This document shows, in pieces, positions 2,589 to 63,044 of a stretch of 64,000 bases of DNA (within the stretch, counting starts at the first letter, position 1; each line of letters opens with the position of its first letter). Both the position numbers and the translations under genes were made by a program. Source of the stretch: Eledone cirrhosa (lineage: Eukaryota); contig CAXHJY010000035.1 in NCBI GenBank assembly GCA_964016885.1, positions 1 to 64,000 on the forward strand, in the 5' to 3' direction. The notes beneath the pieces are model-generated. The model was not told where the DNA came from. It worked only from the letters and a program-made list of their open reading frames with translations, and ran no database searches.

Positions 2589-3008
2589 GTTGGAGGTGAG
2601 TTTTATTGTAGTACAATAAAGCAATGCAGATATCGGATAAGAAGCACTCTACAGTTTGTAGGACTGGAGTATACATAATATATAAGATCAAAAGATGGTT
2701 AAAAGAGTTCCATGTATTTTATTATGCGCATTTCAAAAACAAATATCATCATGCAATAACATTTGTGTTTTCATCAGATAAAATAGGAAGACATGATATG
2801 AAGGTTAAAAAACACTTGTGTATAGTGCAGTTTTAAATCAACATATCATTGATTTAAAACTGCACTATACACAAGTGTTTTTTAACCTTCATATCATGTC
2901 TTCCTATTTTATCTGATGAAAACACAAATGTTATTGCATGATGATATTTGTTTTTGAAATGCGCATAATAAAATACATGGAACTCTTTTAACCATCTTTT
3001 GATCTTAT
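2589..3008. mobile_element. Family A fold-back element in (TA)n, Penelope-like/retrozyme-like
   Basis: About 160-bp inverted arms (~2680-2841 and 2849-3008) around loop catatca; TA tracts on both sides; homologues at 34549 and 55769. Confidence 0.8.
2907..2973 (+). ncRNA. Minimal type I hammerhead ribozyme motif, family A (mirror copy on - strand at 2717-2783)
   Basis: ttttat-CTGATGA-aaac acaaatgttatt gcat gatgatatttgt tttt-GAAA-T-GCGC-ATA-ataaaa; stems I and II pair, palindromic loop III, AUA triplet. Confidence 0.8.
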
Positions 3009-3228
3009 ATATATATATATATATATATATATATATATATATATATATATATATATATATATCCCAAGGCTCTGATACCATCACCACCACAAACACAGAG
3101 ATGGCTATTCAATGGCTATTATCGAAATATATATAGCAGTAAATAAAGGATTATGTGTTCATACAATTAACTTATGTTTCGTCACTATATATATATATAT
3201 ATATATATATATATATATATATATATAT

Positions 3229-3411
3229 AGATGAGATTCTACAGGACTAGAACTGTTTCATTCTTTAGAAATCATCAGGAATCCTGATGATTTCTAAAGA
3301 ATGAAACAGTTCTAGTCCTGTAGAATCTCATCTATATTAGAACTTTATATTCTGCAATGTATTGAGTACCTTACTTACTGTGGTTACCTCCGATTCAACC
3401 CAGAATAACGT
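3229..3411. mobile_element. Family E fold-back element in (TA)n
   Basis: Palindrome centred near 3281 (catcaggaatcctgatg); homologues at 11951, 23565-24332 and 48893. Confidence 0.8.
3235..3283 (-). ncRNA. Type I hammerhead ribozyme motif, family E
   Basis: Reverse complement reads gattc-CTGATGA-tttc taaa gaat-GAAACAG ttctagtc CTGTA-gaatc; GUA triplet. Confidence 0.82.
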
Positions 3412-3667
3412 ATATATATATATATATATATATATATATATATATATAAATGAAGTATTTCCGTGGCAACGGTAAAGGAAAAGAGAGTGCTCTATGTAGG
3501 CTACAGAGCCTTTTAGTTATGTAATAAAGAACATAAGATAATTACTTCATTTACCAAAGGTTTCACGAAGACAGACGAGCTTTATATTTACGCCTGCCTT
3601 CAATCATCAGAAAATTCTTTCTATAGACAGGTCGATAGACAGGTTGGTTGATAGGTAGATAGATAGA

Positions 3668-4394
3668 TATGTTTCTTTTATTTGCCACCAGGGCATCAAA
3701 AGTGGGACAAGTACAAAAGGGGGAGTTTACAAAACAAGGCGTCCTCAATAAGGAGGAGGCAATAACAAAATATAAAAATAAAATAAAATATAACAGAATA
3801 AAATTTATAACAAAATCCTCAATAGAGAGGAGGTGCCTTGGGGGATCGCACACACCCCCGAAAAAAAGTGTGCAACCCTTTTACTCAGGAGCACAGAGAA
3901 GGGGTGCTCCCTTGGTCTTTCATCTTCCTCACCTATAGTCTGATGTAGAGTGAAGGCCCATTCACACGGGCCATTCTCGCCACTTTCACCCATCTTTTAT
4001 AAAAACGGCTGGGGTGCAGCACCTCTCTCTCCATCCTGATCCTTCTTCCGAAATGATATCGGAAGAAACGGACCAGTTGTTGGCCAGAGAGAAAGGTGCC
4101 TGACCTCAGTCCTTTCAGACGCGTCCACCATACAACCTCTTTCGCCATGGCTATTACGCACAGAAACACCGCCTCTCCTTCGTTTTTGAAGAGGGGCGGC
4201 GGCTTGATCGTTACAATAGACTCGGTGGTCAACCGGATCGGTCCCACCCTTGACAGCAGTTGTTCGACATAGCCCCACAGATCAGCAATGCCCGAGCAGT
4301 GTACCAATGCGTGTGCAACGGTTTCCTCGTCGCACACGCATCTGGGACAGATCTTTTTCGAGGGGTCCCTACCCGGGCATAGATAGAACGCCAA
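3668..4394 (-). mobile_element. 5'-truncated L1/Tx1-clade LINE 3' end (CCHC zinc-binding region after RT, plus 3' UTR)
   Basis: ORF 3933-4394 has CPRC..EETVAHALVHC..LW (zf-RVT-like); ends aataaaagaaac next to (ATCT)n. Confidence 0.8.
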
Positions 4395-4671
4395 ACAGTG
4401 AAGGAGGTGGTGGTGTAGAGGGTGAAATGGAGTGACATTAATTTACGAACGTCACCACATCAACATTCGTCTCAAACATCACCCCCACCTCCTCCATTCC
4501 CGTCCTCTTCCCCACTTTGTATTTTCTAAAAAAAAAAAATGTTTAATCATTTGCTATTATCAGAATTATCTCCCTTGGTTATTATTGATTTTAGATTTTA
4601 ATCCCTTCCCTCTGGAGAGTTTATGTCAACTAATTTACTGTATTTTTATGGATTTTATATCGAATAATAAT

Positions 4672-4958
4672 AATTGTTTCTACTTTTGGTACAAGGCCAG
4701 CAATTATTCCAGTGTATTACTGGTACTTTATTTTATCGACCCCGTAAGGATGAAAGGCAAAGTTAACCTTGGCCGGATTTGAACTCAGATCGTAAAGGGA
4801 CGTAACTATGCTGGAAAGCATGTCCGACGCTCTACCGATACTGCCAATTTACCAATATCGAATAATAATAATAATAATAATAATAATAATAATAATAATA
4901 ATAATAATTGTTTCTACGTTAGGCACAAGGCCAGCAATTACCCAGTGTATTACTGGTA
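4672..4958 (-). mobile_element. tRNA-derived Nin/Deu-domain SINE copies separated by (AAT)n
   Basis: Reverse complement has gagttcaaatcc (B box) and gcctttcatccttacggggtcgataaaataaagtacc (Nin/Deu-like core). Confidence 0.75.
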
Positions 4959-60235: not shown

Positions 60236-60778
60236 ATATATATATATATATATATATATATATATATATATATATATATATATATATATTATGATGATAT
60301 ATATATATATATATATATATATATATATATATATATATATATATATATGATGATATATATATATATATATATATATATATATATATAACTATATATATAT
60401 ATATAATATATATATATATATATATATATATATATATATATATATATATATATATATGATGATATATATATATATATATATATATATATATATATATATA
60501 TATATATATATAACTATATATATATATATAATATATATATATATATATATATATAACTATATATATATATATATATATATATATATATCATCATATATAT
60601 ATATATATATATATATATATATATATATATATATAACTATATATATATATATAATATATATATATATATATATATATAACTATATATATATATATATATA
60701 TATATATATATATCATCATATATATATATATAACCAACTTTTTTAAATGGAAGTTTCAATTTTTTATGGTACGTCAAA

Positions 60779-61630
60779 TCTATATATATAAAACTGTGGT
60801 TGTCTGTCTGTCTATCGATTTTTGGCACACACCTCCTCTTAGAATCTCTCACGGAATTGCACCGAAATTGCTATACTTGTACATTGAGCCCTAGTGAAGA
60901 CATCGGAAAAAAAAAATTTCAAATTGACCCACCCTATGTGACGAAATCGAATATAATGTATCGATTTTTGAGCGTAAGTTATCAGTTATTTCCTTTTGTT
61001 CTGTTTACATTGAGCGTCTTACGTAAAAAATTACGGCTTTCTCAGCGTTTAAAAAATATTGACCTGCAAAATTCATCAGTTCGAACACTAAGCTTCCGTT
61101 TTGCTTCATTTCCATTTAAAAGCATTTTAAAACAATATTTTTACTTGAAAACAAGTCTATTTAAAGACTACGTAAAACAAGCAAATATTTCGTCGTTAGG
61201 CGTGCAGACAGACAGTCGTGCAGAGAGGTGATATAGGCGTGCAGACAGACAGTCGTGCAGAGAGGTGATATAGGCGTGCAGACAGACAGTCGTGCAGAGA
61301 GGTGATATAGGCGTGCAGACAGACATAACTGATAATTTGGTTACGCTAATGTTTTTCTCTGCGTTGCAGTGTTTACATTTTCGATCTTTGTTAATAAATA
61401 ACCAGTGCAGTTTCTATCCCCACCATCCTCTTTTGTTATAACATTCGGGTTATCGTTATGTTTTCTTAACTTCATAAGGCATATTGTTGGTTGAGGGAAT
61501 ATTAATCAAAAACACCACATGCAAGTCTGCACAGTAGACACTACAGTTTTTAAGCCAAAAAAGAAACTTAACATTGTAACTTTAACACAGCTACTGAGCG
61601 ACCCCGAGCAACGCCGGGCTTTACTGCTAG
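60779..61630 (+). mobile_element. Non-autonomous Helitron with an internal 37-bp tandem repeat (61198-61323)
   Basis: A|TCTATATATATAAAA start, (GTCT)n near the 5' end, 3' cccgagcaacgccggg hairpin then CTAG|T. Confidence 0.78.
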
Positions 61631-61659
61631 TTTATTTATAAAACTGCTTATATATTGTA

Positions 61660-61721
61660 TTTTATCTGAGGAAGGCATGCCATATTTTTAATATGGTATC
61701 CCTGAAATATCTATAATGAAA
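61660..61721 (+). ncRNA. Hammerhead motif, family C (N7=G)
   Basis: ttttat-CTGAGGA-agg c atgccatatt ttt aatatggtat c cct-GAAA-T-ATCT-ATA-atgaaa. Confidence 0.75.
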
Positions 61722-62696
61722 TAGATATGGTTTTATAAATATAGTTTCCATTTGTTTAATATCGTATATATATTTATATATATATATATATATATATATA
61801 TATATATATATATATATATATATATATATATATATATATATATATATATATATATATATAGTTATATATATATATATATATATAGTTATATATATAGTTA
61901 TATATATATATATATATATATAGTTATATATATATATATATATATATATATATATATATATATATATATATATATATATATTGTCTCAAATTTCGAATTC
62001 ACCGTCAAAACGGGGGTTACCTCCCTTGGAGAAAACCACGTGTCTATAGCGAAATTTACTACTAGAACACACCCGCTGAGGCTATAGAACGCAAAACTTG
62101 TTGAAGTAAATCCTGCAAGCGGAATTAGTCGATCTCGGATTTACAGAAACCTAGCGTGAATGTTGTATGTTATATGTGATGTATATCGTATGCTATACGA
62201 TATGCGTTATGTGTTGCATTCGGTCTCCGCGCGATGGTCCAGGTCAGTCAAAAATCTTTTCCTGGGTCCAGTCTTTTTCGTTGCTATGGCAATGCGGCTG
62301 GACTGCCGATATCTATATTTGATTTGCAAAGCTGTCTAAACGTATTGTTATAACTCTGGGGTATTATTCTCCATCGAGTGCTAAAGCTACATTCCGAATT
62401 CGCATTCGTTAGCTTAGCCGCAGCCTAAAGCTTCGTTAATGCTGTACTAAAATTTGTATATATATATATATATATAACGAAGGAAATGTGGTAAGGAACC
62501 AGGTGGACCATAACGCACCAAAGTACTCAATACTTAGGGTAGTAGAGTGGGTAATAGGAACGAGTAGGACCCCGACGGCTGAGCTCAAGCTGTTTCGACG
62601 GCTAATTCTGGACTAAATATTTAGTCCAGAATTAGCCGTCGAAACGGCTTGAGCTCAGCCGTCGGGGTCCTACTCGTTCCTATATATATATATATG

Positions 62697-63044
62697 TAAA
62701 AGTTCTATTTAAATTGTTGGGATACAACAAGCAAATATTTTTATAACTGATATAAAGCACTCAACAAATATTTGGAGTAAAAATACGATATTAACAAATA
62801 GAAACTATATTTATAAAACCATATTTATTTCATTATACATATTTCAAGGACACCAAGTTAAATTATGGAGCTTCCAACAGAAATGGTTGCATTTTTTAAG
62901 GGTATGTCAATATTTATTTATAAAACTGATCTATATTATATTTTGTCTGATGAAAGCACACCATAATTTAACTTGGTACCCTTGAAATATGTATAATGAA
63001 ATAAATATGGTTTTATAAATATAGTTTCTATTTGTTAATATCGT
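62697..63044. mobile_element. Family C fold-back element; hammerhead at 62941-63001 (+)
   Basis: ttttgt-CTGATGA-aag c acacca...tggtac c ctt-GAAA-T-ATGT-ATA-atgaaa; inverted arm ~62783-62868. Confidence 0.75.

What the first reader, a model, noticed from the sequence alone, without database searches (positions are those of the whole stretch)
2589..63044. About 10 unrelated hammerhead-ribozyme element families colonise the (TA)n microsatellites
Seen: many of the short unique islands between (TA)n tracts contain stem I-CTGANGA-stem II-GAAA-stem III-NTH-stem I. Examples are at 2907, 3235, 6658, 6833, 11430, 11967, 16948, 22316, 22895, 23244, 23811, 25804, 28242, 29816, 30416, 33680, 34865, 54385, 55465, 61660 and 62941. 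Different families share little besides the core, yet the stems pair in each. Established: Penelope-like retroelements and non-LTR retrozymes carry minimal type I hammerheads and give inverted or tandem insertions. Inference: this is a diverse non-autonomous, ribozyme-processed, (TA)n-targeted retro-system mobilised in trans; no Penelope RT or GIY-YIG ORF is visible in this window. About 25 motifs in 64 kb would imply a very high genome-wide ribozyme load.
Basis: partly seen in the sequence, partly recalled or inferred. Interest (0 to 1): 0.92.

Follow-up and report, generated by a model that had tools for sequence, protein, structure and literature searches.

The report
Hammerhead-tipped Penelope ends in TA repeats
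The predicted self-cutting RNA motifs crowding the TA repeats of this stretch are real and are largely the clipped ends of a known kind of jumping gene (Penelope-like elements), plus a few short tandem passengers; the class is known, and what stands out is an estimated load of about 150,000 such motifs in this animal genome.

Summary
The interpretation needs correcting. The families are not all unrelated: 14 of 25 motifs share one stem I. Many are not non-autonomous: families A2, D and F are the pseudo-LTRs of full-length Hydra-type Penelope-like elements found elsewhere in the genome, and other islands are Neptune-type ends. Only E, C1 and C2 (5 of 25) are tandem, ORF-less retrozymes; B, A1 and X have no shown parent. 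Insertions end at two fixed points about 90 nt apart, downstream of the predicted cut, so the template is uncut or circular RNA; ribozyme processing is unproven. Genome load from 59 blind 10-kb samples: about 51 per Mb, roughly 150,000 (97,000-219,000); the window is 7-fold enriched. Hydra elements in octopus (TA)n, their hammerheads and internal priming are published. This scan found the same system earlier on other DNA of this genome (e1-8804474, e1-8673709). New member of a known kind, notable for scale.

The parts
2589..3005 (.). Family A1, two-armed (head-to-head) insertion; hammerhead cores at 2777(-) and 2913(+), predicted cuts after 2723 and 2967; long arm ends 134 nt, short arm 38 nt past the cut
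   Evidence: 419 candidates in the genome; no ORF link shown
3063..3185 (+). Family N, 3' half of a type I motif (second half copy at 27859-27880)
   Evidence: intact motif in L318
3230..3410 (.). Family B, two-armed; core 3278(-) intact, core 3284(+) has lost the 5' strand of stem I at the inversion point
5010..5561 (-). Family X, old repeat (about 78% identity) with type I motif, core 5442, long stem II, palindromic helix III
   Evidence: 816 candidates; motif readable in 5 of 20 loci, this one included
6560..6769 (+). Family A2 copy, core 6664
6787..6941 (-). Family A2 copy, core 6883
7584..7609 (+). Last bases of the tail of a young Hydra-type element (its hammerhead-like motif, core CAGAAGA, is clipped off here)
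10614..10814 (.). Family F, two-armed, only the GAAA-helix III-stem I half of the motif; further copies 13429-13613, 27133-27306, 33921-34006, 54514-54703, 62477-62680. Pseudo-LTR of a Hydra-type element
11421..11537 (+). Family M, core 11435 intact, helix III broken in this copy
11951..12146 (.). Family B, two-armed; core 12011(-)
16920..17050 (+). Family A2 copy, core 16954
19473..19700 (-). Family L, minimal motif at 19564-19591 with a 4-nt palindromic helix III and a 2-bp stem I
21636..22622 (.). Family C1, retrozyme-like unit of about 420 nt with inverted arm; core 22321(+)
   Evidence: two motifs 422 nt apart in L206
22697..23140 (+). Island downstream-homologous to a Hydra-type ORF end in one locus; hammerhead at 22895 not confirmed
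   Evidence: L313
23201..23400 (-). Family A2 copy, core 23299
23530..24333 (.). Family B, two copies with 3' ends facing a shared TA tract; cores 23817(+) and 24190(-); unit of about 600 nt that starts at a (TG)n tract in most genome copies
   Evidence: (2764 candidates)
24454..26125 (.). Family E, 591-nt tandem retrozyme, two-armed; three U3-A8 cores at 24608(-), 25199(-), 25809(+)
   Evidence: 132 candidates; six motifs 591 nt apart in L317
27886..28408 (.). Family C2, 310-nt tandem retrozyme, 1.3 units plus inverted arm; core 28248(+)
   Evidence: four motifs 310 nt apart in L237
29769..30316 (.). Family D, two-armed pseudo-LTR of a Hydra-type element; core 29855(-)
   Evidence: L310, L312
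30342..30532 (+). Family A2 copy, core 30422
33622..33798 (+). Family A2 copy, core 33686
34550..34968 (.). Family A1, two-armed; cores 34736(-) and 34871(+); a third, clipped copy at 55769-56018
36172..36424 (-). 3' end of an RT + GIY-YIG element (L071 type), motif at 36344-36375 with core CCGAAGA
48893..48985 (.). Family B relative with broken core (CTGATAG)
51449..51647 (-). Family I, type I motif with core CCGACGA at 51573-51634; second copy 54851-54912(+)
   Evidence: (CTGACGA in L186)
54101..54489 (.). Family A2, two-armed; cores 54290(-) and 54391(+); arms end 140 and 49 nt past the cut
55267..55438 (-). 3' end of a Neptune-type autonomous element; hammerhead-like motif with UUGAAAA core and GCA in place of GAA
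   Evidence: same position downstream of the ORF in L041, L048, L054, L057, L059, L067, L073, L079
55464..55504 (-).
61631..61774 (+). Family A2 copy, core 61666
62696..63043 (.). Family A2, two-armed; core 62947(+). This subfamily is the pseudo-LTR of a Hydra-type element
   Evidence: L314, L316

Best explanation
The islands are a pile-up of Penelope-like insertions in (TA)n: clipped, often two-armed ends of Hydra- and Neptune-type retrotransposons that carry a predicted type I hammerhead in their terminal repeat, plus a minority of short tandem retrozymes likely copied by the same enzymes. Shown: the motifs, their position in the terminal repeats of full-length RT + GIY-YIG elements, TA adjacency, two fixed 3' end points about 90 nt apart and downstream of the predicted cut. 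Inferred: the GIY-YIG domain nicks both strands of the self-complementary (TA)n; each free end primes the RT inside an uncut tandem (or circularised) RNA at one of two fixed sites, usually at a short UAU that can pair with the target; most copies stop within a few hundred bases, and two such copies meeting head to head give the hairpin. Each insertion leaves TA on both sides, so targets multiply. The loopless palindromic helix III means most motifs would cut only as dimers, in tandem transcripts; solo and head-to-head genomic copies would be largely silent.
For: 25 motifs vs 0.13 shuffled; 6 of 16 predicted pairs with two-sided changes among 11 A-type motifs. Five pLTR-ORF-pLTR elements with the window's motifs at both ends: D (L310, L312), F (L311), A2 (L314, L316). 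A-type motif on the same strand downstream of a Hydra-type ORF end in 21 of 30 and 13 of 25 loci. Hydra diagnostics in the proteins match PMC8557442 section 11. Young family with ORFs of 713-741 aa and 62,009 first-look candidates. Tandem arrays of 591, 310 and 422 nt; E units identical in 9 of 15 within-locus pairs, 0 of 121 between loci. End points after anchor: A2 33/123, A1 37/126, D 40/141, young Hydra 12/102, B 11/83. Helix III has a loop of 0-1 nt in 20 of 22 motif groups with 3 or more hits. Internal initiation at two sites and extension of both strands are published for an anole Penelope (PMC11167929).
Against: No cleavage, expression or circle data. ORF links are direct only for two A2 subfamilies, D, F and two Neptune-side islands; A1, B and X have no shown parent, and other A2 subfamilies are assigned by 72-96% similarity. 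9 of 30 and 12 of 25 ORF-end loci showed no downstream motif within 1.5 kb. The D, F and A2 parent ORFs seen are frameshifted or clipped. TA match at end points is short and uneven (0-8 nt) and cannot separate pairing from a start next to a UAU; the anole enzyme starts at a site not homologous to the target. Clade names rest on motifs, not on a tree. Rfam scores no hammerhead.
Confidence: 0.85

Rival explanations
1. One reading: the islands are independent non-autonomous elements whose RNA is cut to unit length by the hammerhead, circularised, and copied in trans by rolling-circle reverse transcription.
For: E, C2 and C1 are ORF-less tandem units with one motif per unit; E units are near-identical within a locus; B is a 600-nt unit with a common start and no ORF link in 29 + 14 loci; circles are shown for retrozymes of other animals (PMC7229834). 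Ends downstream of the cut fit a circle.
Against: A2, D and F sit in the terminal repeats of full-length elements; A-type motifs are 14 of 25 in the window and 14 of 31 in blind samples. Ends downstream of the cut fit uncut tandem RNA equally, which was the substrate in vitro.
Confidence: 0.12
2. The two-armed islands are DNA-level foldback or MITE-like elements, or recombination products in TA tracts, and the hammerheads are passengers.
For: Many islands are near-perfect inverted repeats flanked by TA.
Against: The arms have unequal, family-specific ends and variable inner junctions, the same sequence occurs as tandem and solo copies and in RT-bearing elements, and the pattern matches the published inverted-copy-plus-tail structure of Penelope insertions (PMC8557442).
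Confidence: 0.02
3. Chance matches in AT-rich sequence.
For: Bare CTGANGA occurs about 15 times per shuffle; A-type stems are AT-rich.
Against: 25 vs 0.13 in the window and 31 vs 0.95 in blind samples; family-wide conservation and two-sided changes.
Confidence: 0.01

Closest known systems
Hydra clade of Penelope-like elements, incl. Hydra-1_Obim of Octopus bimaculoides (Craig et al. 2021, PMC8557442; passages, sections 11 and 15, supplement rows seen)
   Same: C-terminal GIY-YIG, DKT, CxCx5C linker, CxxC and CxH motifs, hammerheads, insertion into (TA)n; the supplement lists Hydra-1_Obim as 2507 bp with (TA)n preference.
   Different: Here RWR rather than RWK; units of 3.5-4.8 kb with long 3' UTRs and real pseudo-LTRs (the paper: under 3 kb; Hydra-1_Obim 'no pLTR'); tails of about 70-100 nt rather than 30-40; tens of thousands of candidates rather than 'a small number' of families.
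Neptune clade of Penelope-like elements (PMC8557442, passages)
   Same: DKG and CX2-5CxxC linker, C-terminal GIY-YIG, 3' UTR hammerhead, TA ends.
   Different: Cores are mostly U3-A8; one family has GCA for GAA.
Minimal hammerheads of metazoan Penelope-like elements (Cervera and de la Pena 2014, PMC4209133; parts 1-2 of 4 read)
   Same: Type I, palindromic helix III, predicted dimer action, U3-A8 variant, many families per genome, mostly solo or opposite-strand pairs 100-700 bp apart.
   Different: Helix III palindromes are longer here (6-12 nt); counts reported there reach about 9,000.
Metazoan non-LTR retrozymes (Cervera and de la Pena 2020, PMC7229834, passages and section 15; Li et al. bioRxiv 10.64898/2026.07.22.740005, parts 1-2 of 5)
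   Same: E, C2, C1: ORF-less head-to-tail units of 310-591 nt with one type I motif each; proposed Penelope origin and mobiliser.
   Different: They are a minority here, two-armed and TA-anchored. The axolotl holds 126,247 type I motifs in 28.21 Gb (about 4.5 per Mb) against about 51 per Mb here; descriptors differ, so the ratio is rough.
PAc, Poseidon element of the green anole, in vitro (Frangieh et al. 2024, PMC11167929; parts 1-2 of 4 read)
   Same: Both strands cut and extended; RT starts at two internal sites downstream of the hammerhead; tail = stretch between them.
   Different: There the start sites are not homologous to the target and lie in an AC-rich hairpin; here they are about 90 nt apart and mostly sit at UAU-like bases.

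Membership tests
Type I hammerhead ribozyme | Core CUGANGA (or U3-A8 variant), GAAA, UH in type I order | tested here: met
   25 motifs; U3-A8 described in PMC4209133
Type I hammerhead ribozyme | Three helices with compensatory change | tested here: met
   Stems I and II predicted, 6 of 16 pairs with two-sided changes in 11 A-type motifs; helix III pairs only as a palindrome in 20 of 22 groups
Type I hammerhead ribozyme | Match to an Rfam hammerhead model at gathering score | tested here: not met
   Only two tRNA hits; none among the 150 of 412 rows shown at E up to 5
Type I hammerhead ribozyme | Self-cleavage at the predicted UH | not testable with these tools
   No raw RNA run listed
Type I hammerhead ribozyme | Loop I-loop II tertiary contact | not tested
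   -
Hydra clade PLE | Single ORF, RT then C-terminal GIY-YIG | tested here: met
   713-aa ORF in L232 with YRDD at 350 and YIGLT at 602; same order in L310-L313. Pfam does not score two C-terminal pieces
Hydra clade PLE | RWK and DKT motifs | tested here: met
   RWR and DKT in L232, L310, L312; DKT in L311; RWR is a one-residue departure
Hydra clade PLE | CxCx5C linker; CxxC and CxH beside the conserved E and N | tested here: met
   L232, L313 all three; L310 linker and CxxC
Hydra clade PLE | Insertion into (TA)n; hammerhead in the terminal repeat | tested here: met
Hydra clade PLE | Generally under 3 kb | tested here: not met
   Motif-to-motif 3.5-4.8 kb in 5 of 5 full-length elements; a tendency in the paper, not a strict criterion
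Hydra clade PLE | Absence of the CCHH motif; placement in the clade on an RT tree | not tested
   No reference Hydra sequences were available to the tools
Neptune clade PLE | DKG, CX2-5CxxC linker, C-terminal GIY-YIG | tested here: met
   938-aa ORF in L061; no tree
Non-LTR retrozyme (E, C2, C1) | Head-to-tail ORF-less units of a few hundred bases, one type I motif each | tested here: met
   591, 310, 422 nt
Non-LTR retrozyme (E, C2, C1) | Expressed as linear and circular RNA | not testable with these tools
Non-LTR retrozyme (A2, D, F) | No linked ORF; tandem short units | tested here: not met
   They flank RT + GIY-YIG ORFs

The most novel reading that the evidence does not exclude
Hydra-type reverse transcriptases here align the nicked (TA)n end on a UAU in a ribozyme-made RNA circle, telomerase fashion, at two sites 90 nt apart, and have thereby built the densest hammerhead load yet measured in an animal genome; the same machine also spreads a hammerhead-less, tRNA-bearing 271-nt tandem unit (window 34059-34482), a SINE-like passenger of Penelope elements.
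Probability: 0.25. Interest if true: 0.72.

Novelty: new member of a known kind. Interest (0 to 1): 0.45.

Why it matters
The class is published, so a specialist would not be surprised by its existence. Two things are useful. First, scale: an estimated 150,000 type I motifs from more than 15 families, about ten times the density of the axolotl record by a rough comparison; no paper with hammerhead counts for an octopus-type genome turned up in searches. Second, a test bed: what Penelope hammerheads do, and whether the template is circular, is open (PMC8557442 section 15; PMC11167929). This genome offers young intact ORFs, matched terminal repeats, mapped end points and natural retrozyme passengers for one in vitro system.

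Tried and rejected
Rfam at gathering and E-value thresholds: no hammerhead; top rows are microRNA models on microsatellites. Window ORF list: no Penelope ORF, only LINE-like scraps and simple-repeat frames. Parent for B: 29 best copies mostly start at a (TG)n tract with unrelated sequence further up; 14 exact copies not followed by TATA showed no run-on into an ORF. Parent for A1: none in 29 loci; a Hydra ORF beside A1 in L222 led to an A2 subfamily instead. E lies downstream of a GIY-YIG ORF in L056 but inverted and behind a microsatellite, so no link was accepted. 22895 rejected as a hammerhead. Scaling 25 per 64 kb to the genome (over a million) rejected. Sequencing runs: no RNA holder listed; all 4 runs laid are contigs of unrecorded kind and show the 591-nt go-back joint, which tandem DNA and a circle would both give, so it is no evidence either way. 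Lunse et al. 2017 on dimeric Penelope hammerheads is not held; recalled only and not relied on. One of 60 requested sample stretches did not exist. No tree was built, for want of reference sequences.

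
Full report
Check of the observation. The window is a TA-rich stretch (186 tracts of (TA)6 or more, 2.9 per kb against 1.3 per kb in blind genome samples) on a 69.7-kb contig of a 3.0-Gb genome. A strict type I hammerhead descriptor finds 25 motifs; 200 block-wise dinucleotide shuffles give 0.13 on average and never more than 2. 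Self-BLAST groups the 25 into eight families. A1 and A2 hold 14 of them and share stem I; their stem II shows two-sided changes in 6 of 16 predicted pairs. Broken or half motifs of about eight more families are present. Rfam does not score any of them.

Ribozyme anatomy. Over all loci held at that point, 20 of 22 motif groups with three or more hits have a helix III with a loop of 0-1 nt, a palindrome that cannot close as a hairpin but pairs with a second copy (the descriptor admits such palindromes by design, but also loops up to 14 nt). This is the dimer-type design reported for Penelope hammerheads, which cleaved weakly and only as dimers (PMC4209133). The U3-A8 core of family E is described there too.

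Where the families come from. The genome is rich in GIY-YIG domains (10,596 first-look candidates). ORFs with RT followed by GIY-YIG reach 938 aa and carry DKG and a CX2-5CxxC linker, the Neptune pattern; their 3' UTRs hold a hammerhead and end in TA. Two window islands, 55267-55438 and 36172-36424, are such ends. A second protein type has RWR, DKT, CxCx5C, CxxC and CxH, the Hydra pattern of PMC8557442; one young family has 62,009 candidates, 97-100% identity among the 150 scored and ORFs of 713-741 aa. Walking upstream from the 62947 subfamily of A2 reached such an ORF about 1.55 kb away. Of 30 loci picked by that ORF end, 21 have the A-type motif downstream on the same strand; for a sister subfamily 13 of 25. 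Five complete elements carry the window's motifs at both ends, 3.5-4.8 kb apart: D (L310, L312), F (L311) and A2 (L314, L316). So these islands are clipped terminal repeats of autonomous elements. In contrast E (591 nt, six units in L317), C2 (310 nt, four in L237) and C1 (422 nt, two in L206) are tandem units without an ORF, that is non-LTR retrozymes. B is a unit of about 600 nt with no parent found; A1 and X are unassigned.

Insertion geometry and mechanism. Elements meet TA at their 3' ends: 26 of 31 motifs in blind samples have TA within 200 nt downstream, 12 of 31 upstream, against 14% of random positions. The ends are not at the predicted cut. They cluster at two points per family, about 70-100 nt apart and both downstream of it; two-armed copies usually have one long and one short arm. 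In the five full-length elements the sequence after the 5' motif is the 5' UTR, and the 3' tail repeats it. A linear RNA cut at both ribozymes would have this sequence at its 5' end, so the template must be uncut tandem RNA or a circle (inference). The first was shown in vitro for an anole Penelope, which cuts and extends both strands, starts at two internal sites and does not need its hammerhead (PMC11167929). Here the main end points mostly fall at three or more bases of TA-like sequence in the element, where 3-15% of positions would by chance; this suggests primer pairing but the match is short and uneven. E units within a locus differ by 1.5 bases on average, between loci by 4.2, as expected if an array is made in one event, though local duplication would look the same.

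Load. Fifty-nine 10-kb stretches taken at round coordinates on the large contigs (589.8 kb; 60 asked for) hold 31 motifs against 0.95 in shuffles; the same, slightly different descriptor finds 23 in the window. That is about 51 per Mb, or 153,000 in the genome (Poisson 102,000-219,000; bootstrap 97,000-214,000). Small contigs were not sampled, and broken or scrambled motifs are not counted. The window is about 7-fold enriched. The axolotl has 126,247 type I motifs in 28.21 Gb, counted with another descriptor.

Comparison and verdict. Hydra elements in octopus with (TA)n preference are on record (Hydra-1_Obim), as are Penelope hammerheads, inverted copies with tails, retrozymes and their proposed Penelope origin. 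A 2026 octopus repeat annotation lists Penelope-like families and does not mention ribozymes (PMC13282606, passages). Searches found no paper on hammerhead numbers in such a genome; subscription papers and bioRxiv supplements are outside the library, and file S2 of PMC8557442 was not seen. That the genome is octopus-like comes from earlier scan notes and from recalled SINE sequence, not from a test. My reading was written down before the earlier notes were opened; they agree with it and are not independent evidence. Verdict: real, largely explained by known biology, remarkable in scale. Interest 0.45.

Noticed in passing
window 34059-34482: Two-armed insertion in TA of a 271-nt head-to-tail unit holding a tRNA-like module (Rfam tRNA 44 bits; ARAGORN Ser-GGA, no long variable arm) and no hammerhead core. 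1258 candidates in the genome; of 23 loci, 20 end in TA, 11 show tail-spacer-tRNA continuity, 12 have an inverted arm; two fixed ends about 40 nt apart. Looks like a tRNA-bearing passenger of Penelope machinery; no earlier scan note by sequence, nothing evident in the listing of one search.
   Followed up: partly
window 5779-5817, 27387-27425, 51942-51980(-), 55638-55676, 63145-63183(-); also about 15910-15985: Hammerhead-like motifs with blocks in S-G-C order; stems I and III pair, with a compensatory change at 55638; stem II not resolved. Matches the scrambled motifs of earlier scan notes and the SGC type of PMC10085705 (passages).
   Followed up: partly
L081-L110; window 7584-7609: Young, very abundant Hydra-type family whose hammerhead-like motif has core CAGAAGA (U4A) and a looped helix III.
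   Followed up: partly
window 55267-55438; L067, L073, L079: Neptune-type family whose motif reads GCA where GAA is expected, in every copy printed.
   Followed up: no
window 5916-6526 and six more copies (14673-15187, 27464-27813, 35433-36043, 36493-37563): Young 610-nt repeat (about 97% identity) between TA tracts, without a type I motif; its 5' part recalls RTE LINE leaders (recalled, untested); 10 matches in the 590-kb sample.
   Followed up: no
window 25412-26003: The E unit is held at over 95% identity by runs under three organism labels; in two runs as a single cyclic contig without flanks. Kind of run not on record, so no conclusion.
   Followed up: partly
window 4650-4960, 9092-9512, 17890-19251, 28604-29203, 53684-54050, 59535-60234: Tandem clusters of one SINE-like family, not TA-anchored.
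   Followed up: no
window 3669-4442(-), 50521-50934(-): LINE-like 3' fragments.
   Followed up: no
window 39340-48870, 52231-53640, 58900-59520, 1-2000: Large simple or short-period arrays: (CCAA)n-type 9.5 kb, a 54-nt unit, a short-period array, and a (GT)n/GTG array.
   Followed up: no
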